Below, one piece after another: positions 16,769 through 60,526 of a stretch of DNA of 64,000 nt. The stretch is from positions 171,263-235,262 of the forward strand of contig CAZINP010000001.1 of assembly GCA_964540635.1 (NCBI GenBank), written 5' to 3'. The notes beneath the pieces were generated by a model that searched no databases, was not told the origin of the DNA, and saw nothing but the letters and a program-made list of their open reading frames with translations. Positions within the stretch are counted from its first letter, which is position 1. Each line of letters starts with the position of its first letter. The stretch is from an uncultured Gammaproteobacteria bacterium (GTDB lineage: Bacteria; Patescibacteriota; Patescibacteriia; Buchananbacterales; UBA6539). The translations under genes were made by a program, and so were the position numbers.

Positions 16769-17530
16769 ATGAAAAAATTTATTATAAATTTAACTAAAAA
16801 AACCGGCTTGGAAGTTTTGAAGCGATTTCATTCCGACAAAACTTTTAAGATTAAAAGTAAGTCACAAATTGTAACTGCGACCGATTATTTGGCTGACAAA
16901 ATTATAGTTACTGCTTTAAAAGAAAAATTTCCCAATTACAAAATTTTAAGCGAAGAATCGGGCGGGGATAAAAAGAAATCAGACTATCTCTGGGTGGTTG
17001 ATCCGATTGACGGCACAACCAATTATTCAATCGGGAGCCCGCTTTTTGCCGTCCAGCTGGCTTTGTTTTACAAAGATCAACCGGTGATTTCTTGCGCTTA
17101 TGCGCCGGCGCTTGATGAATTATATTTTGCCGAGAAAGGCAAAGGGTTTTTTTTGAATAATAAAAAAATGCGGGTTTCTAGTACCGCTGATTTGGAAAAA
17201 TCATTTTTTCTTTTCTGCCATGGTTCAAAGCCAAAAGATATTAAACGTGCAATGAAAATTTACAGTCAAGCTAAATTAAAAACTTTAGACTCGCGCCAAT
17301 TGGGCACCGCGGCTTTGGAAACAGGTTTTGTGGCTTGTGGCCGCACTGATTGCATTGTTATTCCCGGGGCCAATGTTTGGGATATTGGTCCGGGTGTTTT
17401 ATTTATTCGGCAAGCCGGTGGCAAAGTTACGGATTTTTCCGGCAAGGAATGGAATTTAAATTCTTATGATTTGGCTGCTTCTAACGGCAAAATCCATCCC
17501 CAATTATTAAAGTTATTAAAAAATAAATAA
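16769..17530 (+). CDS. Inositol monophosphatase family protein
   Basis: WVVDPIDGTTNY motif. Confidence 0.85.
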   Translation: MKKFIINLTKKTGLEVLKRFHSDKTFKIKSKSQIVTATDYLADKIIVTALKEKFPNYKILSEESGGDKKKSDYLWVVDPIDGTTNYSIGSPLFAVQLALFYKDQPVISCAYAPALDELYFAEKGKGFFLNNKKMRVSSTADLEKSFFLFCHGSKPKDIKRAMKIYSQAKLKTLDSRQLGTAALETGFVACGRTDCIVIPGANVWDIGPGVLFIRQAGGKVTDFSGKEWNLNSYDLAASNGKIHPQLLKLLKNK

Positions 17531-17572
17531 AAAAGGGCTCCGAAGCGCGGGGCGCTCCGAAGCCTGAATCGT
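17531..17572 (-). terminator. Strong minus-strand intrinsic terminator: 13-bp stem GGCTTCGGAGCGC/GCGCTTCGGAGCC followed by CTTTTTTATTTATTT
   Basis: Derived by reverse-complementing the plus strand. The stem has two G-U pairs and a CCC loop. Confidence 0.6.
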
Positions 17573-17940
17573 CGGGGGTGAGATAATGAGCGGTGGGGAA
17601 GAAATTCCCCTACGTGTGGCCGGATGGCCACTTGCGACCGAACAGTCGGCGCAAAGTGTTCATTCCTGGATCCTCCTTACCCTGGGGGGGTGCGCCGTGT
17701 CGTCAGGCGGCCGCTTCGCCGTTCTTCTTCGAGGTGTTGCTGCCGAGGTTCGCGCCGTGCCGGGGATTCTTCGCTTTGCGGCGGGCGTGCTTCGTGGTGC
17801 CAAGGTTCGCGTTGCGGCTGTGCATATTGGGGGTCTCCTTGCGTTTTGGCTTTGCCAATCCTTGTTAGCTGCAGCACTACCTGGCTGCCACCATTATCTG
17901 AATGGTGTTGCCTTCAAGCAACGTCCGTAAAGCGGAAATT
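17573..17940 (-). ncRNA. GC-rich roughly 400-nt element with no coherent ORF; candidate structured ncRNA of unknown family
   Basis: Overlapping short ORFs in several frames on both strands. Low-complexity translations. Internal roughly 60-nt imperfect tandem duplication (CGCGAACCTYGGCA...CACGG). Ends at the terminator above. Contains AAGGAGG-N8-ATG leading into a 17-codon ORF. Confidence 0.3.
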
Positions 17941-18003
17941 AGCAAACCATAAAAAGATACTATCACACCAATTTAAATAAATCAAGATGTTCCCAATAAT
18001 TAT

Positions 18004-18225
18004 ATGGATCTGCATATTCGCGTAATCCCCAATTCAAAACATCAGGAAATCATTGAAGAAAATGATAATTTTTTAAAAATAAAAATTAAAGCCCCGGCCA
18101 AAGAGGGCAAGGCTAATAAAGAGTTGATTGAGGTTTTGGCCAAAAAGTGCAAAGTAGCTAAATCGCAGGTTGAAATTATCAAAGGCTTAAGCGGAAAAGA
18201 TAAAGTTGTGCGAATTTATGGCTAA
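18004..18225 (+). CDS. DUF167 (YggU) family protein
   Basis: IKIKAPAKEGKANKELIEVLAKKCKVAKSQVEIIKGLSGKDKVVRI matches the DUF167 pattern. Confidence 0.7.
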   Translation: MDLHIRVIPNSKHQEIIEENDNFLKIKIKAPAKEGKANKELIEVLAKKCKVAKSQVEIIKGLSGKDKVVRIYG

Positions 18226-27006: not shown

Positions 27007-27957
27007 TTAATTTTCCAAACTTAGTGCCGGTTGATCATCTTTGTGTCCTTGGTACCAGTCATCAACTGCTTGATTAATTTTCTGAAAATGTTCTTGCCAT
27101 TCTTCAATTCTTTCCGGTTTTATTTCACCCCAAAAGCGATCTTTTACGGGCTGGCCGGGATTTTGCCGATATTCAAGGATTATCTTTTTATAGTGGTGGT
27201 GAGTAATAGCTTCGGTGGCTGCCATTGAGAATTCTTCCGGGCTCATATATTCAGCCAAAACCGCGGCCACTTGGGTTTTGGCTCTTTCTTGGCGCTGGGT
27301 TTTTAAGGGACTGTGCGATAGCGCTTCGCCTAAACGATAGGGCAGGTATTGATTATCCAGGTCAATCATTTGATTTTTTAAGCTATAAAGTTCGTCGCTC
27401 AAAGTTCTTTTTTCGTGCGGTTTTTTTGATTTTTTTAAAGCCTCTTCTTTTTGGCTGATTCTTTGTTGCAGTTCAACGATTTGTTTTTTTAAAGCTTCAG
27501 CCTTAAGCCGTTCTTTCTCAAATTCATCTTGGTGAAAATATTGATATTCATTTTCCGGCCGAAAGCGGTTGGACCAAATTGAATCAATTAATTTTCTATA
27601 ATAGTCGACGGCATAGTCGGTATCTCTGCCCGGCAGAAGTCGATTTTCGTCTTCCGGTTTTACGCCTGTTCTGATATCAAAAAGAAGGTGTTGCATTAAT
27701 CTGATTCGGCCGTCTTCATCGGTCATTTCTTTTGCTGCCTGCGCTTCTTCTTCTTTTGGTAAATCGGGTACGGCCATCTGCAGCCCCGTTTTTTCAAAAC
27801 TTTTATCAATTACTCTTTGGCGCATTTCTTTTGGCAAAAGATCAAAACCGGATCGCGTTTCTTCCAGTTGAGATAATTTTTTACGCAGAAGCTGGCGGTT
27901 TTGCTCGGCTGATCTTTCGGATTGTTCGGAATATGGGTTTGGTCTTTCGGCAGACAT
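27007..27957 (-). CDS. Hypothetical charged/coiled-coil-rich protein
   Basis: 316 aa, rich in E/K/R/Q heptad-like stretches, no motif recognised. Confidence 0.45.
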   Translation of the reverse strand: MSAERPNPYSEQSERSAEQNRQLLRKKLSQLEETRSGFDLLPKEMRQRVIDKSFEKTGLQMAVPDLPKEEEAQAAKEMTDEDGRIRLMQHLLFDIRTGVKPEDENRLLPGRDTDYAVDYYRKLIDSIWSNRFRPENEYQYFHQDEFEKERLKAEALKKQIVELQQRISQKEEALKKSKKPHEKRTLSDELYSLKNQMIDLDNQYLPYRLGEALSHSPLKTQRQERAKTQVAAVLAEYMSPEEFSMAATEAITHHHYKKIILEYRQNPGQPVKDRFWGEIKPERIEEWQEHFQKINQAVDDWYQGHKDDQPALSLEN

Positions 27958-27969
27958 AATTATGAAAAA

Positions 27970-28392
27970 TTATTTTTTTAATTTAGCGGCTTTTAAAAAA
28001 AGTAACCCGGAGATAAACCATAAAATAACAAAGAAAAGGTTAAAGGCCAGCACCATAAAAAAGCCGATATTTACCGGCGGATGCCAAATGGCCGCGGCAA
28101 TAAAGGGCGCTGATATTTGCGCCAAAGCGGCGATAAACAAACAATCAGCCATTATTTTTGATTTTAAGCGAGAAAAAACCGCACTTAAATAAACAAAGAT
28201 TATAATGCCGAAAAACATCAGATTGGCCGGGTGGTTTTCATTGCCGATAATGCCGACGGCTAAATTTACCCAAGCCATTAAAAGTGAATTTAAAACAAAA
28301 ACGCCGATGGCGATTTTGGGTAAGTGATTATTTATTATCATTTTGATGAAATATTTTATTAAGACAAAACTTAATTTCATTATATCAAACAT
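27970..28392 (-). CDS. Small polytopic membrane protein (about 4 TM)
   Basis: 140 aa, four hydrophobic segments. Confidence 0.5.
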   Translation of the reverse strand: MFDIMKLSFVLIKYFIKMIINNHLPKIAIGVFVLNSLLMAWVNLAVGIIGNENHPANLMFFGIIIFVYLSAVFSRLKSKIMADCLFIAALAQISAPFIAAAIWHPPVNIGFFMVLAFNLFFVILWFISGLLFLKAAKLKK

Positions 28393-28397
28393 GGGTA

Positions 28398-28438
28398 CAA
28401 ATAAAAAACCCTCGGTAAAACCGATAGTTTTTTATTTA
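28398..28438. repeat. Direct repeat A (41 nt): AAATAAAAAACCCTCGGTAAAACCGATAGTTTTTTATTTAG, terminator-like hairpin
   Basis: Matches 31510-31550 with one mismatch (T/G). It sits between divergently oriented genes, where a terminator is not expected. Confidence 0.7.
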
Positions 28439-28515
28439 GAGTTTGTCGTAAAAAATGGGAAACCAAAAAATCCAAATAAGTATTTATAAATTTTAAAATT
28501 TTTTGGTCATTTAAA

Positions 28516-29448
28516 ATGAATGAATATTTTAAAATATATTTAACTGTGATAAAATATAAGAATATGAAAATAAAAAATCAGCTCCCAATAACCATTTTTA
28601 TCGCCGTAATATTATTCAGTTTTATATTATTAGCCAATCCGGCCCAAGCCGCCGTGTTATATGACAAAGGCACTCTTTTAAAGGGCGAGTTTGCCGAAGT
28701 TTTTTTGGTATCCCAGGATAATATATTGCATTGGATACCAAACGAAGAAACCTTCAATGCGCTTGGTTATTCGTGGTCATCAATAATTGTTGTAAAAAAT
28801 GAAGTGCTTTGGCAATATAGTTTTGGTGAAGCGCTGGGTTCGGTTGATGTGAATTTGGATCCGGAAAAATCAGCTGAATCCGGTTTTGAAACGCCTGCAG
28901 AAATTGAAATAAAAGTAAAAGAATATTTTATTGATATTCCAATAATGATTGATATTGCCAAGTGCGAATCGGGATTTCGTCAGTTTAACGATAATGGCAC
29001 CGTCCTAAAAGGCAGTGGGCTATATGTCGGGGTTTATCAAATTGATGAAAAAATCCACAAGGACTACGCCAAGGAGTTGGGTATGGATATTTTTTCAGTT
29101 GAAGGCAATTTAGCTTATGCTAGACATCTTTACAATAACCTTGGCCCACAACCTTGGCCGGCTTGCTCCAAAAAATCCGTTGCGTCTAATACGCTAATCA
29201 CAAGTGATCTTGCTTTTGGGGACACAAGCGATGAAGTGAAAGTGCTTCAGCAGTTACTTAATCAAAAGGGATTTATTATTAGCGAATCGGGTCCCGGTTC
29301 TTTGGGCAATGAAACTCAATACTTTGGCGCCTTAACCCGCCTGGCTGTCCAAAAATTTCAATGCAGTAAAAATATTGTTTGCCAAGGCGACGAAGCAACT
29401 ACCGGCTATGGTTTGGTTGGTTCAAAAACCCGAGCCGCCCTGCAGTAA
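28516..29448 (+). CDS. Secreted peptidoglycan hydrolase-like protein: Rpf/transglycosylase-like domain + C-terminal PG_binding_1 domain
   Basis: IAKCESGFRQF (transglycosylase-like CESG motif). C-terminal GDTSDEVKVLQQLLNQKGF...TRLAVQKFQ (peptidoglycan-binding). Probable true start at MKIKNQLPITIF (28564) with a signal peptide. Confidence 0.6.
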   Translation: MNEYFKIYLTVIKYKNMKIKNQLPITIFIAVILFSFILLANPAQAAVLYDKGTLLKGEFAEVFLVSQDNILHWIPNEETFNALGYSWSSIIVVKNEVLWQYSFGEALGSVDVNLDPEKSAESGFETPAEIEIKVKEYFIDIPIMIDIAKCESGFRQFNDNGTVLKGSGLYVGVYQIDEKIHKDYAKELGMDIFSVEGNLAYARHLYNNLGPQPWPACSKKSVASNTLITSDLAFGDTSDEVKVLQQLLNQKGFIISESGPGSLGNETQYFGALTRLAVQKFQCSKNIVCQGDEATTGYGLVGSKTRAALQ

Positions 29449-29488
29449 AATAAGAATTTATCTTAAATATACTAATAAATAAAAAATC

Positions 29489-29510
29489 CTCAGCTTGCTG
29501 AGAATTTTTT
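29489..29510. terminator. Bidirectional terminator shared by convergent genes
   Basis: CTCAGC-tt-GCTGAG flanked by an A-run and a T-run. The downstream TTTTTTATTTAGAG string is shared with repeat A. Confidence 0.5.
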
Positions 29511-29572
29511 ATTTAGAGCTTGCCCTAATGAGTGGCAAACTCAGATGTATAATAACAAATAATCCAAATAAA

Positions 29573-30922
29573 TCAAGTGTTTTTACGCTTATCTAATTTT
29601 CTTTGGATCTGTCTTTTTATATATTTTATCATTCTGTATCGAGAAATTTTATTTTTAGTTTGATTAGAAATTTGCGATATCTGTTTTAAGTAACTGATCA
29701 TATTATTATGTCCCAAGTCAGTAAATTTTGAATAGATTTTTCTTCTCGATACATAAGTTGATTTATCCACTGCCCTAAATACCTTTGACGAAATCATCTT
29801 ATTGAGCCTTCTTTTATACCTTGCCCAAGAAGATGGCCTTATATCTATTCTTTCACCATCAAAAATTAAACCAAGGTATTGCATATTAGATTTATTTAAA
29901 TTTATGTCATAGCAAACTAATTTTCCAGAGCTAAATCTAAACATTTTCTTATCTGTCTTTGATTGCTGCACTTCCAGATGTTGATTCTTTATTTGATTTT
30001 CTATTATTAAATTAACTTCATTTATTTTTTCAGCTTGCAAAGCTTCTACACTCGGTATTGCAATTAAAATATCATCACTGTATCTCCTGTATATACCTTG
30101 ATGAGATGCAGCATAATTCTTTAAACAAATATCAAAGTCTAACATGTAAAAATTTGAAATAACCGAGCTAATAGGTGATCCCTGAGGAATTCCTTTTCTT
30201 TTGTTGCTTTTAATTACTCCTTGATCTCTAACTTTATTCCTAAATTCGTTTGGATTACATAACCTTCCTTTGCTATTCTTGAATAATTTTTTTATTTGAT
30301 CATACTCAACATAAGAATATTTAGTAATGGATCGATATATTTTATAGTGATCGGGGGGCAATATATCTTCAGGATTATAAAGTAATTTTTTCCATTGATT
30401 TTTAATTAAGTTATGGTCTAAACTGTCAAAAAATTTTTCAATATCATAACAAATCACGATACAAGGCGAAATTGTTTTTATTAACTGAAAAACTTCGTTG
30501 GCAAAATCTATGTTTGATTTATTTAACTTACGATAAGCAATAATACTATCGTCTATCTTTAATTTATTAGCAAGAATTTCATATCTATAATTTAAATAAA
30601 AATTATACCAAGAATAAATTAATGAATCTTTATGTGATGCGTAATTAATAAGTCTTTCTTTTTTATCAATAATTCGTTGGTCAGTTGATTGTTTCCTTCT
30701 CCTTGTCTGCCTAACTGACCTAATAAATGGATAAAAAGAATGCCTGGCCACTTGACCAGGTTCAAAGATAAATTTTGTGTTTTCATTGTTTAATTCTTTT
30801 GCTCGAAAATCAAAATGTATGTACTTCCTTTTCAATCGTTCATATCCTCCGGTATGTATCTTCTTATTTTCTTGTTTAATCCATTCTTCTCTCAATTTTA
30901 AAATATTTAAACTCATAAACAT
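29573..30922 (-). CDS. Stand-alone reverse transcriptase (retron / defence-associated UG-type-like), not a group II intron RT
   Basis: RT motifs ERLINYASHKDSLIY (RT1), ICYDIEKFFDSLDH (RT2), GIPQGSPISSVISNFYM (RT4), YRRYSDDILIAI (RT5 YxDD), YLGLIFDG (RT7). Basic C-terminal roughly 100-aa tail. No maturase/endonuclease domain. No domain V-like sequence downstream. Confidence 0.8.
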   Translation of the reverse strand: MFMSLNILKLREEWIKQENKKIHTGGYERLKRKYIHFDFRAKELNNENTKFIFEPGQVARHSFYPFIRSVRQTRRRKQSTDQRIIDKKERLINYASHKDSLIYSWYNFYLNYRYEILANKLKIDDSIIAYRKLNKSNIDFANEVFQLIKTISPCIVICYDIEKFFDSLDHNLIKNQWKKLLYNPEDILPPDHYKIYRSITKYSYVEYDQIKKLFKNSKGRLCNPNEFRNKVRDQGVIKSNKRKGIPQGSPISSVISNFYMLDFDICLKNYAASHQGIYRRYSDDILIAIPSVEALQAEKINEVNLIIENQIKNQHLEVQQSKTDKKMFRFSSGKLVCYDINLNKSNMQYLGLIFDGERIDIRPSSWARYKRRLNKMISSKVFRAVDKSTYVSRRKIYSKFTDLGHNNMISYLKQISQISNQTKNKISRYRMIKYIKRQIQRKLDKRKNT

Positions 30923-31325
30923 CCCACACCCTTAACATTTTTGGCTCTGGCACCTTAATAACAATGTTAAGGGATCAAAAATTTTGCGTCTCCATAAGAG
31001 ATCGTCCAGATAAAATCGGAATAAATAAACAATGTTATTATGTTAATGTGTCTTATTCTTCTTGATTCATTATTGGCAGCTGTTTGCAGCGCCAATCTCC
31101 GTTTCAGGTTCAAAGCCTTGTTATCTGTCTCCTTAGAGGAAATAACGTTGACTTTAATTCTTAACATAATATCTTATGGACAATTCCATAAGCACCACAA
31201 GGGCAGTAATACTAAAGTATTACTAGCAAAGCATACCATAATTAAATTGCTAAGTCAAGCTAAAATTTCTAACATTATAACTTAAGTGGACATTTACAAA
31301 ATTTAGCAAAAAGATTGATGCTAAT

Positions 31326-31350
31326 TTTTTTATTTAGCCCCACGGGGAAT
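31326..31350. repeat. Partial direct copy (25 nt) of the tRNA-Glu 3' end plus its downstream flank: TTTTTTATTTAGCCCCACGGGGAAT
   Basis: Identical to 31540-31564, which covers the genuine tRNA-Glu 3' end. Both are in the same orientation. Confidence 0.7.
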
Positions 31351-31509
31351 TCCGCCTCGTCCTCGCTTCCGCTCGGACTTCGTTGCCCTGGGCAGCGCCA
31401 AAGCCTGCGCCAGCTCGGCTTTGTCGACGCTTGGCTTCATTCCTCGTCCCGCTGTGGCGGGACTCGGAACTTGCCTCGCTTCTGCCCGTTCGATTCCCCA
31501 CAGCCGAGA
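31351..31509 (-). ncRNA. GC-rich structured noncoding segment between the two tRNA-Glu 3'-end copies; candidate RT-associated ncRNA
   Basis: No ORF support. Hairpins include GTCCCGC-caca-GCGGGAC and CTGTGG...CCACAG. Carries a GTTCGATTCCCC 12-mer identical to the tRNA-Glu T-loop region, but in inverted orientation. Lies upstream of the RT on the same strand. Confidence 0.35.
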
Positions 31510-31550
31510 TAAATAAAAAACCCTCGGTAAAACCGAGAGTTTTTTATTTA
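31510..31550. repeat. Direct repeat B (41 nt), terminator hairpin directly 3' of tRNA-Glu
   Basis: AAATAAAAAACCCTCGGTAAAACCGAGAGTTTTTTATTTAG. Perfect CTCGGT/ACCGAG stem flanked by A- and T-runs. Confidence 0.7.
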
Positions 31551-31620
31551 GCCCCACGGGGAATCGAACCCCGATTACCACATTGAAAGCGTGGTGTCCT
31601 AGCCGTTAGACGATAGGGCC
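31549..31620 (-). tRNA. tRNA-Glu (anticodon TTC)
   Basis: Minus-strand reading GGCCCTATCGTCTAACGGCTAGGACACCACGCTTTCAATGTGGTAATCGGGGTTCGATTCCCCGTGGGGCTA. D-arm like canonical tRNA-Glu. Anticodon loop CTTTCAA. Acceptor has two G-U pairs. Confidence 0.75.
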
Positions 31621-31747
31621 ATGAAAATAATAATAGGTAGCAAAAGTTTTTTACTACAGAAAAAATATTACCTTATTTTTGCCGTTTTGTCAATATCAAT
31701 CAAAAGACGAATTTCTTTAAAACCCCGGCCTTTGTTATAATTAAACC

Positions 31748-33170: not shown

Positions 33171-33896
33171 CTATCTGATTATTACTTCAGCAAAATACGG
33201 TTCGGTGATTTTTTTGGCTTGCGCGATTTGATCCGGAGTGGGAGGTGAAATTTTTTCCAATTCATATTCTTTGCCAAGCTCTTTGAATTTATACACCCCG
33301 AAAGTGTGATAGGGCAGAATTTCCATCCTTTTAACATTTCCGTAATCTTTAAAGTGCTGACCAAGTTTTTCCAGAAATTCCGGTTGGTCGGTATAGCCCG
33401 GCACTAAAACATACCTAAGCCAAATCGGCTTATTTATATCTTTAAGATACTGGGCAAAGGCGAGGGGGGCGTCGTTTTTTTGACCGGTAATTTTTTCGTG
33501 CCAAATCGGATCAATATGTTTGATGTCCAGTAAAATCAAATCAACAAATTCAAGCAATTCTTTTACGGCCGGAGTAAGGATTGAACCGTTTGTATCCAGA
33601 GCAATGTTAAATCCTCTTTCTTTTATTTTTTGGCAGATGATTTTTAAATCTTCTGCTTGCATCAAAGGTTCTCCGCCGGAAAAAGTTACGCCGCCTTCAT
33701 TTTTGTAATAAGGTTTTGAGTTTTCAATGAGACGAAGCAATTCTTCGTCAGGGGTTTCTTTGCCACCTTCAAGATTTTGCGTATCAACATTATGGCAGTA
33801 AAGGCAACGATAATTGCAACCCTGTAGAAAAACGACAAATCTGATTCCCGGCCCTTCGTGGGTTCCCAAAGATTCAATTGAATGGATTTTTAACAT
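33171..33896 (-). CDS. pflA: Pyruvate formate-lyase activating enzyme (glycyl-radical activase, radical SAM)
   Basis: GCNYRCLYCHN CxxxCxxC cluster. Adjacent to pflB. Confidence 0.9.
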   Translation of the reverse strand: MLKIHSIESLGTHEGPGIRFVVFLQGCNYRCLYCHNVDTQNLEGGKETPDEELLRLIENSKPYYKNEGGVTFSGGEPLMQAEDLKIICQKIKERGFNIALDTNGSILTPAVKELLEFVDLILLDIKHIDPIWHEKITGQKNDAPLAFAQYLKDINKPIWLRYVLVPGYTDQPEFLEKLGQHFKDYGNVKRMEILPYHTFGVYKFKELGKEYELEKISPPTPDQIAQAKKITEPYFAEVIIR

Positions 33897-33916
33897 GAGA
33901 CTTTTAGTGTTGGGAT

Positions 33917-36145
33917 TTAGATTTTTTCAAAGAAAGTTCTGGCTAAAACTTCTTTTTGCTGTTCGGGGGTAAGCTTGATGAAGTTAACGGCATAACCGGA
34001 AACGCGAATGGTCAGCTGCGGATAATTTTGCGGATTTTTCATGGCATCAAGCAAAGTCTCTTTGTTTAAGACATTAACATTTAAGTGATGTGCGCCTTTG
34101 CCAAAATATCCATCCAGGATTGAAACCAAATTTCCGACTTTCTCTTCTTCGGTCGCGCCCAAGGCCGGACCGACAATGGAAAAAGTGTTTGAGATGCCGT
34201 CTTTGGCGTATTCATATTCAAGTTTGGCCACAGAATTAAGAGAGGAAATCGCGCCGGAAGTGTCGCGGCCGTGCATTGGGTTGGCGCCGGGCGCAAACGG
34301 TTCACCAGCCTTTCGGCCGTCCGGAGTAGCGCCGGTTTTTTTGCCGTAAACCACATTGGAAGTAATGGTCAAAACCGACAAAGTTGGCGCTGCGTCCCTG
34401 TAAATTTTGTGCTTATTCAATTCTGTATTGAAAGCCATAACAATTTCTTTGGCAATTGAGTCAACGCGATCATCATCGTTGCCGTATTTGGGATAATCGC
34501 CTTCAATTTTATAATCAACGGCAATGCCTCTCTCGTCTCTTATGGGAGTTACCTTGGCGTATTTGATTGCCGAGAGTGAATCGGTAACAACTGACAAGCC
34601 GGCAATACCAAAAGCCATCACTCTTTCAACGTCGGTGTCTAACAGCGACATCTGCGCTCTTTCGTAATAATATTTGTCGTGCATATAATGGATGACGTTC
34701 ATGGCATTAACATAATTTTGAGCCACATATTCCATTGCTTTTTTGTAGCTTGATAAAACTTTTTCATAATCAAGCGCGCCGTCCATTTTTTCAATTCCGT
34801 CAACGATTTTGGTATCAGACATTTCATCAAATCCGCCGTTAATGGCGATTAAAAGAGTTTTGGCCAAATTGCATCTGGCGCCAAAGAATTGCATTTGTTT
34901 TCCGGTCTTGAGCAAAGAGACGCAGCAGGAAATGCCGTAATCATCCGAGCAAAAAACTTTGCGCATCAAATCGTCGTTTTCATATTGAATTGATGAAGTT
35001 TCAATGCTGGTTTTGGTGCAAAATTCTTTAAACGGCTTTGGCAATTTGTCCGACCATAAAACCGTAAGGTTTGGTTCGGGTGAGGGGCCGAGATTTTTTA
35101 AAGTATGCAAAAAGCGATAAGTGGTTTTGCAAACTTTATGCTCGCCGTTTTCCCACATGCCTCCCACTGATTCGGTTAACCAAGTCGGGTCGCCGGCAAA
35201 AAGCTGATTGTATTCATTCATGCGCAAATGTCTGACCAAACGCAATTTAATTACAAATTGATCAATGATTTCTTGGGCTTGTTCTTCGGTTAATGCACCA
35301 GACTCCAAATCTCTTTCAAAATAAACATCAAAGAAATTGCTGACATTGCCTAACGACATGGCTGCACCATCGTGTTCTTTGAGCGCGGCCAAGTAACCAA
35401 AATAAGTCCACTGCACCGCTTCTTTGGCGTTTTGGGCGGGCTGAGAAATGTCAAAACCATAGCTGGCCGCCATTTCCTTAATCATTTTCAAGGCTTTAAT
35501 TTGCTCGCTGATTTCTTCTCTGAGCTGAATCAAATCATTAGTCATGGCGCCGACAAAGCGGGTTTTATCTTCTTCTTTTGATTTAATTAATTTATCAATG
35601 CCGTAAAGCGCCACGCGGCGATAGTCGCCGATAATGCGGCCGCGTGCGTAGGCATCGGGCAAACCGGTAATAACGCCGGTTGATCTTAATTTCCTTATTT
35701 GTTCATCGTAAGCATCAAATACGCCGTCGTTGTGGGTTTTTCGGTATTGCGTGCAAATTTTTACAACTTCATCGTCAACTTTGTAGCCGTTTTCTTCGCA
35801 GGCTTTTTCAACCACGCGAATACCGCCAAACGGCTTAATGCCTCTTTTGAGCGGTTTGTCAGTTTGAAGTCCAAAAATTACTTCCAAATCTTTTTTAATA
35901 TAACCGGCTTTGTGGCTGGTAATGGTGGAAATATTTTTGGTATCAATATCAAGCACGCCGCCATTTTTGATTTCCTTGGCCATTAGCTTGGTACATTCAG
36001 TCCAAAGTTTTTTGGTCCTGGGTGTTGCGGGAACCAAAAAATCAGGCTGATTGTCGTATTTGGTTCGATTATTAAAGACAAAGTCTCTTACATCTATTTC
36101 TTTTTGCCACTTACCGGCATTGAATTCTTTCTGATTTGAAGTCAT
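33917..36145 (-). CDS. pflB: Formate C-acetyltransferase (pyruvate formate-lyase)
   Basis: 742 aa. C-terminal glycyl-radical motif RVSGYAVNF. Conserved PFL core throughout. Confidence 0.9.
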
Positions 36146-36296
36146 ATTTTTTAAAATTATTATTAACTAGTAAATTATTATAACCCTTTTTCTTGAATAA
36201 ATCAAGTTTGTTATTTTTTATGATAAATCGTGTTCGGGTTAGTCAGTTGAGTTTAAATTTGGTAAAATTAAAGAATAAAACATATTTAGCATTTTT

Positions 36297-60230: not shown

Positions 60231-60526
60231 GGCTTATCCTCCATGGTTATTGCCAAAAAACGTTTTATGCAAAGATCTAAAAAAGCCAACCTTTTTGGGG
60301 AAGAGATTGGCTTTTTTAGACCAAAAAAACTCTTGGGCAAGAGTCTTTTTCATCTTTGTTATCTTCCCCTTATTTGTTTGCGTAAAGCAAACGGGCTGAA
60401 TTTAGCACCAATCCCATGGGGACGGTTGCCGGCTGCCATTGGGTCAGTTCCCTTAGCAAGCAGCACTCTTGATAACCTCTTTGTTGTTAATGTATAAAAA
60501 TATTTTAGAGCAAAGACAATGATTTG

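What the first reader, a model, noticed from the sequence alone, without database searches (positions are those of the whole stretch)
28398..31564. Roughly 3.2-kb direct-repeat-bounded island at tRNA-Glu carrying a stand-alone reverse transcriptase, a lysin-like gene and a structured noncoding segment
A 41-nt sequence (AAATAAAAAACCCTCGGTAAAACCGA[T/G]AGTTTTTTATTTAG) occurs at 28398-28438 and again at 31510-31550, immediately 3' of tRNA-Glu. The two copies are in the same orientation and differ at one position. A 25-nt copy of the genuine tRNA-Glu 3' end plus flank (TTTTTTATTTAGCCCCACGGGGAAT, 31540-31564) is duplicated at 31326-31350. The string TTTTTTATTTAGAG also recurs at 29504. Between the 41-nt repeats lie three things: (1) an Rpf/transglycosylase-like plus PG-binding secreted protein, which is phage-lysin-like; (2) a 449-aa reverse transcriptase; (3) a GC-rich structured noncoding block. 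Copy A sits between divergently transcribed genes, where a terminator has no obvious role. That is what a target-site or att duplication would leave behind. Nested partial tRNA-end copies suggest repeated integration or recombination at this tRNA.
Basis: seen in the sequence. Interest (0 to 1): 0.8.

Follow-up and report, generated by a model that had tools for sequence, protein, structure and literature searches.

The report
DRT2 antiphage cassette beside tRNA-Glu
The "stand-alone reverse transcriptase" is a DRT2 antiphage system with its own non-coding RNA, sitting in a rearrangement-prone spot next to a tRNA-Glu gene of a candidate-phyla-radiation bacterium; the repeats are real, but they are duplicated terminator and tRNA-end modules, not the ends of one 3.2-kb island.

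Summary
The 449-aa ORF is a DRT2 (UG2) antiviral reverse transcriptase. In silico, a 135-nt template closes into a stop-free reading frame and rebuilds a TTGACT-17-TATTAT promoter across the repeat junction. This matches the published "neo" mechanism, but GUU repeats replace the ACA repeats.

Only about 29.5-31.3 kb is compositionally foreign (27-30% GC against about 39%). The lysin-like gene has host-like GC and is common in CPR chromosomes. In one relative it sits convergent with a tRNA-Glu and no RT lies between them.

The 41-nt unit is a bidirectional terminator of this genome's usual style. The two copies share a hairpin core, so they are true duplicates.

The GC-rich block is not part of DRT2. 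In a ~70%-identical relative it recurs, with a 22-nt tRNA-Glu 3'-end repeat, at the far end of a different cargo (an Abi_C protein).

Verdict: a known defence system in a tRNA-Glu-linked variable hotspot. The proposed island boundaries and cargo are wrong.

The parts
28399..28439 (.).
   Evidence: In sister strain L001 it matches T_C at only 37/41, and homology with the window breaks exactly at its outer edge.
28440..28480 (-). H': a decayed copy of the hairpin module H that follows the RT gene.
   Evidence: D2/D3: 74-78% identity to 29458-29540; alignment.
28516..29448 (+). Secreted lysin-like protein with a PG_binding_1 domain and a weak transglycosylase-like domain. It is a resident CPR gene, not island cargo.
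   Evidence: (PF06737 at 19.4 bits, below the cutoff of 27).
29476..29516 (.). Terminator module T_B, shared by the lysin gene (+) and the RT gene (-). It marks the left edge of the tract that is identical between strains.
   Evidence: (I5); 90% identical to L018.
29517..29546 (-). Hairpin H (GAGTTTGCC...GGCAAGCTC) in the RT 3' UTR. Together with T_B it forms the conserved H-T module.
   Evidence: Sub-threshold Rfam TD-2 hits in the window (31.9 bits) and in L018 (39.2 bits; gathering score 48.7).
29573..30916 (-). DRT2 (UG2) antiviral reverse transcriptase, 447 aa, with an intact YSDD catalytic motif.
   Evidence: PADLOC Drt2 E = 1.9e-124; NCBIfam Drt2 390.9 bits against a cutoff of 390; solved DRT2 structure 9c0i E = 1.1e-70; invariant columns.
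30923..31226 (-). DRT2 non-coding RNA: SL1, a 5' hairpin, the template hairpin, the template and the 3' scaffold hairpin.
   Evidence: Homologous to the region upstream of the RT in L002. Folding z = -4.0. The 5' hairpin covaries across 5 loci.
31230..31258 (-). Promoter-like site TTGACT-17-TATGCT (with TG) upstream of the ncRNA and RT.
   Evidence: L002 has TTGACT...TATAAT at the equivalent place.
31032..31166 (+). Predicted neo repeat unit (135 nt, 45 codons), read antisense to the ncRNA. It is bounded by AACA repeats at 31028-31031 and 31163-31166.
   Evidence: Inferred, not measured.
31326..31350 (-). Copy B: a 25-nt exact copy of the tRNA-Glu T-loop-to-3'-end sequence plus 8 nt of flank (att-like).
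   Evidence: D4. The equivalent 22-nt repeat occurs in L018.
31351..31509 (-). GC-rich structured block fused to copy B. Its ends are conserved and its middle is variable. It is not part of DRT2.
   Evidence: No Rfam or Pfam match.
31511..31551 (.).
31548..31621 (-). tRNA-Glu(UUC), with a promoter-like TTGACA-17-TAATAT at 31693-31665.
   Evidence: Its sequence is 100% identical in L018.

Best explanation
The locus is a type 2 defence-associated reverse transcriptase (DRT2) system lodged in a tRNA-Glu-linked variable hotspot of a Patescibacteria (CPR) genome.

Shown: the RT belongs to DRT2, and it is preceded on the same strand by a promoter and a ~300-nt structured RNA that is homologous to the RNA upstream of the nearest RT relative for which DNA was available.

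Inferred by analogy with KpnDRT2: the RT binds this RNA and reverse-transcribes a template held by a long-range 'template hairpin' (31172-31161 pairing with 31046-31036). It then jumps between short GUU-containing direct repeats and makes head-to-tail cDNA repeats of about 135 nt. After phage-triggered second-strand synthesis, each junction would create an extended -10 promoter (TTGACT-17-TGnTATTAT). It would also create an endless reading frame for a hydrophobic 45-aa repeat that arrests growth.

Genomic setting: only the low-GC cassette at about 29.5-31.3 kb is foreign. It lies between the terminator of the resident lysin-like gene (T_B) and an att-like module, namely the GC block plus a 25-nt tRNA-Glu 3'-end copy, which is followed by the tRNA's own terminator (T_C). 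The 41-nt 'direct repeats' are two copies of a terminator module.

The modules (a = tRNA end, T = terminator, H = hairpin, GC block) recur in a relative in circularly permuted order around a different abortive-infection gene. The present order therefore most likely arose in one of two ways. One is a tRNA-Glu-targeting element recombining through its terminator. The other is tandem integrations followed by deletions between terminator copies. This last step is inference.

The confidence given is for the whole statement: about 0.95 for DRT2 identity, about 0.7 for the neo-type mechanism, and about 0.5 for the account of the genomic mosaic.
For: DRT2 identity.

ncRNA: the promoter, SL1, the 5' hairpin, the arms GATATTATGTTAA/TAACATAATAACAT and the scaffold hairpin CCCTTAA...ACCAGAG...TTAAGGGTGTG are shared with L002 and show compensatory changes. 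Folding z-scores are -4.0 and -3.7.

Neo features: in three loci (window, L002, L044) a short direct repeat, a unit divisible by 3 (135/120/141 nt), a circular stop-free frame and a -35/-10 pair brought to exactly 17 bp all coincide. The -10 lies inside the template hairpin, as reported for KpnDRT2 (PMC12039810). The neo strand is antisense to the ncRNA, as published.

Extent of foreign DNA: GC content. Between strains there are 0 differences in 1973 nt (29497-31469), against 2.4% in the lysin gene and 3.9% in the deacetylase gene.

Lysin is resident.

Module conservation and alternative cargo: L018 has tRNA-Glu, then an Abi_C gene, then H-T, then a short GC block, then a 22-nt tRNA-end repeat. 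H-T is 90% identical where coding DNA is about 70% identical.

Terminator nature of the 41-mer.
Against: No experimental data support cDNA synthesis. The ACA motifs that define the KpnDRT2 template are absent. The junction is chosen from several in-silico candidates. A circular open frame occurs in about 20% (window and L002 units) and about 7% (L044 unit) of shuffled units, so the ORF alone is weak evidence. MFE folding does not recover the long-range template hairpin. NCBIfam passes by only 0.9 bit. Other long identical tracts exist between the two strains, so the identical tract could be ordinary mosaic recombination. No integrase was found and no strictly empty site was recovered. L015's tRNA-Glu is the CUC isoacceptor. 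The origin of copy A, with its H' remnant upstream of the lysin gene, is not explained by a single event.
Confidence: 0.7

Rival explanations
1. One reading: one ~3.1-kb island (lysin, RT and GC block) integrated at tRNA-Glu, and the 41-nt repeats are its att sites or target-site duplication.
For: The 41-nt pair is 40/41 identical, is unique in the window and brackets all three features. Copy A has no terminator role between divergent genes. Homology between the window and the sister strain breaks exactly at the outer edge of copy A.
Against: GC content and inter-strain divergence split the interval in two: the lysin part is host-like and the RT part is foreign. Lysin homologues are chromosomal across CPR, and one is adjacent to tRNA-Glu with no RT. 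L001's copy A matches copy C at only 37/41 although both strains carry the island, which points to gene conversion or module turnover rather than one integration scar. A third related module, T_B plus H, lies inside the interval. The A/T frame is generic in this genome. No integrase is present.
Confidence: 0.12
2. Canonical tRNA-targeted integrations in tandem. Elements of the form [terminator-cargo-H-T-GC] integrate at the 25-nt tRNA-end site 'a'. The window would hold a newer element collapsed to T_C-GC and an older one (X-DRT2-H-T_B) that lost its distal GC-a. Both losses would come from deletion between repeated terminators.
For: L018 shows exactly tRNA-a|terminator-Abi_C-...-H-T-GC|a. The repeat boundary falls in the T-loop, a classic integrase crossover site (established knowledge of tRNA-targeting tyrosine integrases). 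GC-a-X is contiguous in both genomes, and a terminator-like hairpin follows the distal 'a' in both.
Against: It needs about four events. No integrase is seen in the window, L001 or L018. DRT2 lies outside the 25-nt repeat pair.
Confidence: 0.3
3. No mobile element is involved. The repeats would be products of local duplication, gene conversion and homologous recombination among similar terminators, and the GC block would be a decayed tRNA-like gene. DRT2 would have arrived by ordinary homologous recombination of flanking DNA.
For: Divergence between the strains is mosaic, with several identical tracts. Synteny breaks at many points among relatives. 22 other DRT2 loci have no nearby tRNA.
Against: GC-a and H-T are 90-100% identical between species whose genes are about 70% identical. 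Different defence cargo occupies the same modular frame. The RT cassette has a strongly deviant GC content.
Confidence: 0.2
4. The RT is a retron or group II intron remnant, and the GC block is its msr/msd or an intron RNA domain.
For: There is a structured GC-rich RNA-like block near an RT.
Against: NCBIfam group II intron RT scores 55.9 against a cutoff of 300, and retron RT scores 54 against 235. Rfam finds no intron or retron RNA. The GC block lies upstream of the RT promoter and occurs in L018 without any RT.
Confidence: 0.02

Closest known systems
KpnDRT2 (Klebsiella pneumoniae DRT2/UG2; Tang et al. 2024, doi 10.1101/2024.05.08.593200; Wilkinson et al. 2024, PMC12039810; PDB 9c0i)
   Same: A single RT gene with no effector domain. 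A ~300-nt ncRNA lies upstream on the same strand under a shared promoter. There is a template hairpin whose 3' arm carries the -10 element, and a -35 element near the other end of the template. The two are brought to 17 bp on concatenation. The repeat unit is divisible by 3, with one stop-free, hydrophobic frame antisense to the ncRNA.
   Different: About 36-39% protein identity to Proteobacterial DRT2. The template is flanked by (U)GUU direct repeats instead of ACA-1/ACA-2. The predicted unit is 135 nt, not 120 nt. The template hairpin is longer (11 bp). The host is an AT-rich CPR bacterium. Nothing has been tested experimentally.
tRNA-gene-linked genomic or defence islands, and integrase-less att-flanked remnants such as the CIMEs of streptococcal ICEs
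   Same: There are partial direct copies of the tRNA 3' end starting in the T-loop. The tRNA is reconstituted with its own terminator. The cargo has atypical composition. A relative carries a different defence gene at the same tRNA.
   Different: No integrase is present. The 25-nt repeats bracket only 189 nt. The RT cassette lies outside that pair. A conserved GC-rich palindromic block is fused to the distal tRNA-end copy. Terminator modules serve as additional recombination joints.
Bidirectional intrinsic (Rho-independent) terminators
   Same: The 41-nt unit has an A-tract, a GC-rich hairpin and a T-tract. T_B and T_C sit at the 3' ends of convergent or tandem transcription units.
   Different: Copy A sits between divergent gene starts. 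It shares its exact hairpin with T_C, so it is a displaced duplicate and not a working terminator.

Membership tests
DRT2 (UG2) defence system | The RT sequence falls in the DRT2/UG2 family. | tested here: met
   PADLOC Drt2 E = 1.9e-124. NCBIfam equivalog NF041746 scores 390.9 bits against a cutoff of 390, a marginal pass. PDB DRT2 chains match at E about 1e-70 over the full length.
DRT2 (UG2) defence system | Intact polymerase active site (YxDD) and family-invariant residues. | tested here: met
   YRRYSDD is present, and all 46 invariant columns of an 18-member alignment are kept.
DRT2 (UG2) defence system | Minimal architecture: an RT-only protein with no fused or adjacent effector. | tested here: met
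   Only RVT_1 is found in Pfam. The neighbours are the lysin-like gene on the opposite strand and RNA modules.
DRT2 (UG2) defence system | A conserved, structured ncRNA of about 280 nt upstream on the same strand. | tested here: met
   31226->30923 aligns with the region upstream of the L002 RT, including promoter, hairpins and scaffold. z = -4.0. Covariation could be scored in one hairpin only. No Rfam model exists for this RNA.
DRT2 (UG2) defence system | Template bounded by the conserved ACA-1/ACA-2 motifs. | tested here: not met
   No ACA lies at the 5' template boundary. Instead, direct repeats UGUU (window), GUUA (L002) and UUAAUGUUU (L044) flank the template. This is a variant of the jump signal.
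DRT2 (UG2) defence system | Concatenation reconstitutes a -35/-10 promoter at 17-bp spacing. | tested here: met
   TTGACT-17-TATTAT with TGn (window), TTTACA-17-TATTAT (L002) and TTGACA-17-TAATAT (L044). This is in silico only.
DRT2 (UG2) defence system | Repeat unit divisible by 3 with one stop-free frame antisense to the ncRNA. | tested here: inconclusive
   The 135-nt unit has one circular open frame. However, 7-21% of shuffled units also have one, and the junction is inferred.
DRT2 (UG2) defence system | Rolling-circle reverse transcription, phage-triggered second strand, toxic Neo protein. | not testable with these tools
   Requires cDNA sequencing and phage assays.
tRNA-integrated genomic island | Direct repeats of the tRNA 3' end flank the island. 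| tested here: inconclusive
   The 25-nt repeat exists but brackets only T_C plus the GC block (189 nt). The RT lies beyond it. In L018 a 22-nt repeat brackets a 1.9-kb Abi_C cargo.
tRNA-integrated genomic island | An integrase or recombinase gene at the island end. | tested here: not met
   No recombinase domain occurs in the interval or within about 10 kb in L001. Small ORFs give no Pfam hit.
tRNA-integrated genomic island | Atypical base composition. | tested here: met
   27-30% GC for 29550-31050 against about 39% for the window. The lysin part is host-like.
tRNA-integrated genomic island | Empty or differently occupied site in relatives. | tested here: inconclusive
   L018 has the same tRNA and modules with different cargo. 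L015/L016 have lysin->terminator<-tRNA-Glu(CUC) with no RT. No strictly orthologous empty site was found.
Intrinsic terminator (the 41-nt unit) | A GC-rich stem-loop followed by a T-run, located at the 3' end of a gene. | tested here: met
   The scan finds the hairpin at all three modules. T_C follows tRNA-Glu, and T_B follows both the lysin and RT genes. Copy A fails the positional criterion.
Retron / group II intron | RT of that clade with its cognate RNA. | tested here: not met
   Scores fall far below the curated cutoffs. No Rfam RNA match.

The most novel reading that the evidence does not exclude
The module H-T-GC block-tRNA-Glu 3' end would be the conserved end or attachment region of an undescribed family of very small, integrase-less cassettes in Patescibacteria. 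These cassettes would swap single-gene abortive-infection systems (DRT2 here, an Abi_C protein in L018) at tRNA-Glu, using terminator hairpins as well as the tRNA T-loop as recombination joints. The DRT2 they carry would represent a clade that uses GUU rather than ACA jump signals to build a 45-aa hydrophobic Neo repeat.
Probability: 0.2. Interest if true: 0.6.

Novelty: new member of a known kind. Interest (0 to 1): 0.4.

Why it matters
It shows that the gene-building DRT2 mechanism, so far studied experimentally only in Proteobacterial systems (e.g. K. pneumoniae) expressed in E. coli, is encoded with all its cis-elements in ultra-small CPR bacteria. The template-jump motif and the repeat length differ. 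This gives a natural variant for testing which RNA features programme the jump. The locus also documents a tRNA-Glu hotspot where different abortive-infection genes sit in the same modular frame without a visible integrase. That bears on how defence genes move in organisms with tiny genomes. For annotation, it is a warning that repeated terminator hairpins can mimic att sites.

Tried and rejected
(1) Exact-protein look-ups of the 449-aa RT ORF and the deacetylase found nothing. The RT was found only as the 447-aa form.

(2) The genome-contig scan with the deacetylase returned only distant Firmicutes and Chloroflexi relatives at 35% identity or less, so it gave no synteny information.

(3) GC block as part of the DRT2 ncRNA: rejected. 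L002 has a homologous ncRNA but a coding gene where the GC block would be. L018 has the block with no RT.

(4) GC block as a known RNA: no Rfam hit at E <= 1 and ARAGORN finds nothing. As a protein or integrase remnant: no Pfam hit in any of its ORFs. As a dispersed repeat family: its motifs occur only at tRNA-Glu fragments. In viral contigs: three pattern scans found nothing.

(5) Lysin as phage cargo: rejected. No PDB sequence match. The transglycosylase-like domain is only sub-threshold.

(6) tRNA association as a property of DRT2: rejected. 22 other DRT2 loci have no nearby tRNA.

(7) MAFFT/RNAalifold on five divergent ncRNAs aligned poorly and recovered one helix. MFE folds miss the long-range template hairpin.

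(8) Circular-ORF shuffle test: not significant on its own.

(9) Relatives of the 316-aa neighbour: only two exist. The 80%-identical one (L048) has different genes upstream, so no empty site was found on that side.

Full report
OBSERVATION

The repeats are real. The repeat finder gives a 41-nt direct pair at 28399-28439 and 31511-31551, identical at 40/41 positions. It also gives an exact 25-nt pair at 31326-31350 and 31540-31564. A 31-nt core allowing up to 3 mismatches occurs only at these two places in 64 kb, with none expected from shuffles.

tRNA-Glu(UUC) is at 31548-31621 on the minus strand. The 25-mer therefore holds the last 17 nt of the tRNA, starting in the T-loop, plus 8 nt of flank. 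Copy C of the 41-mer begins at the tRNA's last 4 nt. Copy A lies between the starts of divergent ORFs.

The GC-rich block at 31351-31509 folds much better than shuffles on both strands (z = -5.1 and -5.6). The minus strand is somewhat more stable.

WHAT THE 41-MER IS

Each copy is a hairpin flanked by an A-tract and a T-tract, which is the form of a bidirectional intrinsic terminator (I6/I12, 20). The frame AAATAAAAAA-hairpin-TTTTTTATTT occurs five times in the window, at 320, 28399, 29477, 31511 and 56799, with different hairpins. It also occurs in a Buchananbacteria locus. The recurring 'core' TTTTTTATTTAG is therefore just this lineage's terminator T-tract.

Only copies A and C share the hairpin core, so they are true duplicates. 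A third module, T_B at 29476-29516, sits between the lysin and RT genes. T_B is followed by a hairpin, H. A decayed H (H') follows copy A, so the lysin gene is flanked by ~100-nt direct repeats of about 75% identity (D2/D3).

THE RT IS DRT2, WITH ITS ncRNA

The ORF matches PADLOC Drt2 at E = 1.9e-124. It matches the NCBIfam Drt2 equivalog at 390.9 bits against a cutoff of 390. It matches solved DRT2 structures such as 9c0i at E about 1e-70 over its full length. Retron and group II intron models score far below their cutoffs. Among 1135 homologues, several from Patescibacteria are already named 'antiviral reverse transcriptase Drt2'. The YSDD motif and all family-invariant residues are intact.

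A promoter-like TTGACT-17-TATGCT lies upstream on the same strand at 31258-31230. It is followed by about 300 nt (31226->30923) that align with the region upstream of the nearest RT relative for which DNA was available (L002, 46% aa identity). The shared features are as follows:
- SL1 and a 5' hairpin with compensatory changes (CTTATGGA/TCCATAAG against CCCGTGGA/TCTACGGG).
- The conserved arms GATATTATGTTAA ... TAACATAATAACAT.
- A 3' scaffold hairpin (CCCTTAACATT...ACCAGAG...AATGTTAAGGGTGTG).

The RNA is structured, with z = -4.0. The 5' hairpin covaries across five loci.

MECHANISM (INFERRED)

Published work shows that DRT2 copies a ~120-nt template of its ncRNA by rolling-circle reverse transcription. 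The concatemer reconstitutes a promoter with 17-bp spacing and an endless ORF antisense to the ncRNA. The -10 element lies in a 'template hairpin'.

Here the cDNA sense is the window's + strand. The unit 31032-31166 (135 nt, 45 codons) is bounded by a 4-nt direct repeat (AACA; UGUU in the RNA). It joins TTGACT (31148-31153) to TGnTATTAT (31033-31041) at exactly 17 bp. It is stop-free in one circular frame: VIMLMCLILLDSLLAAVCSANLRFRFKALLSVSLEEITLTLILNN.

The same rule works in L002 (120 nt, repeat GUUA, TTTACA-17-TATTAT). It also works in L044 (141 nt, 9-nt repeat, TTGACA-17-TAATAT).

Caveats:
- Other junction candidates exist.
- 7-21% of shuffled units have a circular open frame.
- The ACA motifs of the Klebsiella clade are absent.
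- Nothing has been measured.

EXTENT OF THE FOREIGN DNA

GC content is 27-30% from about 29550 to 31050, against about 39% for the window. The lysin gene is host-like at 37-43%.

A sister-strain contig (L001, Logan SRR8925758) carries the whole arrangement. Against it there are 0 differences in the RT, ncRNA, copy B, T_C and the tRNA. There is 1 difference in the GC block. The lysin gene shows 22/933 differences and the deacetylase gene 41/1041. The identical run of 1973 nt begins at 29497, inside T_B. Other long identical runs exist elsewhere in the alignment, so this is suggestive rather than decisive.

THE LYSIN-LIKE GENE IS RESIDENT

It has 77 homologues in CPR genomes (Buchananbacteria, Kaiserbacteria and others) in ordinary chromosomal neighbourhoods. 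In L015 and L016 (63% identity) the gene is followed by a terminator and a convergent tRNA-Glu(CUC). There is no RT between them and no tRNA-end repeat. Its PG_binding_1 domain is significant. The transglycosylase-like domain is only sub-threshold.

THE GC BLOCK BELONGS TO THE tRNA-END COPY, NOT TO DRT2

A metagenome contig with the identical tRNA-Glu was recovered (L018). Its genes are about 70% identical at the nucleotide level and syntenic with window 15.8-27.0 kb. It shows, in order: tRNA-Glu; a terminator; a 274-aa Abi_C protein; a 91-aa ORF; H-T (90% identical to the window's H-T_B); a short GC block; a 22-nt exact copy of the tRNA 3' end; and another terminator.

The ends of the GC block are identical in both genomes (GGGGAATCGAAC ... 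GGGCAGAAGCGAGGACGAGGCGGAATTCCCCGTGGGGCTA). The middle differs. The window has about 105 extra nt between two GAAGCGAGG repeats, and L018 has an extra 20-nt hairpin. L018 also has a tRNA-Glu 5' half interrupted by GC-rich hairpins just upstream of the intact tRNA.

The block has no Rfam, Pfam or viral-contig match and is not a dispersed repeat. L018 has no RT, and 22 other DRT2 loci have no tRNA nearby. The tRNA link is therefore a property of the site, not of DRT2.

HISTORY (INFERENCE)

In tRNA orientation the window reads:
tRNA-a-T_C-GC-a-X-[DRT2]-H-T_B-(lysin)-H'-T_A.

L018 reads:
tRNA-a-term-[Abi_C]-H-T-GC-a-X.

Both are windows onto the same periodic pattern, ...T-GC-a-X-cargo-H-T.... This pattern is expected in two cases. 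In the first, a circular element (a-X-cargo-H-T-GC) recombined with the chromosome through its terminator instead of through 'a'. In the second, tandem integrations at 'a' were followed by deletions between terminator copies. I cannot separate these two cases.

Copy A, with H', looks like a further relic of such a module. Its outer edge is a strain-specific breakpoint: 501 nt carrying a 140-aa membrane-protein gene in the window against 109 nt in L001. In the window it is closer to T_C than in L001 (40/41 against 37/41), which suggests gene conversion. No integrase or integrase remnant is present.

VERDICT

It is wrong on the boundaries, the cargo and the nature of the parts. The system is a new, CPR-borne member of the known DRT2 family with a variant jump motif. 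It sits in a modular tRNA-Glu hotspot whose GC-rich att-linked block remains unexplained.

Noticed in passing
window 17528-17970: A second GC-rich (~60%) intergenic block lies between the genes at 16769-17530 and 18004-18225. It is absent from the syntenic relative L018. On the minus strand it carries a short ORF (starting MHSRNANLGTTKHARRKAKNP...) preceded by AAGGAG. No Rfam or Pfam match.
   Followed up: partly
L018 6653-6797: A pseudo-tRNA-Glu 5' half (positions 1-32 plus 8 nt of upstream flank) lies directly upstream of the intact tRNA-Glu. It is interrupted by two GC-rich palindromic insertions of 74 and 38 nt and is truncated at the anticodon loop.
   Followed up: partly
window 27898-28398 vs L001 12519-12627: A strain-specific indel abuts copy A. 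The window has a 140-aa hydrophobic protein gene, which has a 41%-identical homologue in Buchananbacteria locus L017. The sister strain has 109 unrelated nt at the same place.
   Followed up: partly
window 29475-29573 (-) and L018 8679-8774 (+): The two-hairpin H-T module gives sub-threshold matches to Rfam TD-2 RNA (31.9 and 39.2 bits; gathering score 48.7). It is 90% conserved between species whose genes are about 70% identical.
   Followed up: partly
window 31361-31482 (minus strand): Inside the GC block, about 105 nt absent from L018 are flanked by 9-nt direct repeats (GAAGCGAGG). This could be a small insertion with a target-site duplication, or a slippage duplication.
   Followed up: no
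window 60356-60478 (-): A SAM riboswitch (RF00162) scores just at its gathering threshold (44.5 against 44.4 bits).
   Followed up: no
window 33171-36145 (-): Pyruvate formate-lyase and its activating enzyme lie next to the hotspot. The 1378-nt stretch 34833-36210 is identical between the two strains, which is part of a mosaic divergence pattern.
   Followed up: no
L046 56-2356 and 4626-6002; L002 4546-6523: Other DRT2 relatives sit in defence or mobile contexts. L046 lies between a Piwi (pAgo-like) gene and a DUF6602 gene. L002 lies next to PIN_12/sigma70_r4, Fic and HTH_17 genes.
   Followed up: no
L018 8440-8498: A long, near-perfect hairpin (spurious mir-137 hit, 40 bits) lies in the non-coding stretch between the 91-aa ORF and the H-T module.
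   Followed up: no
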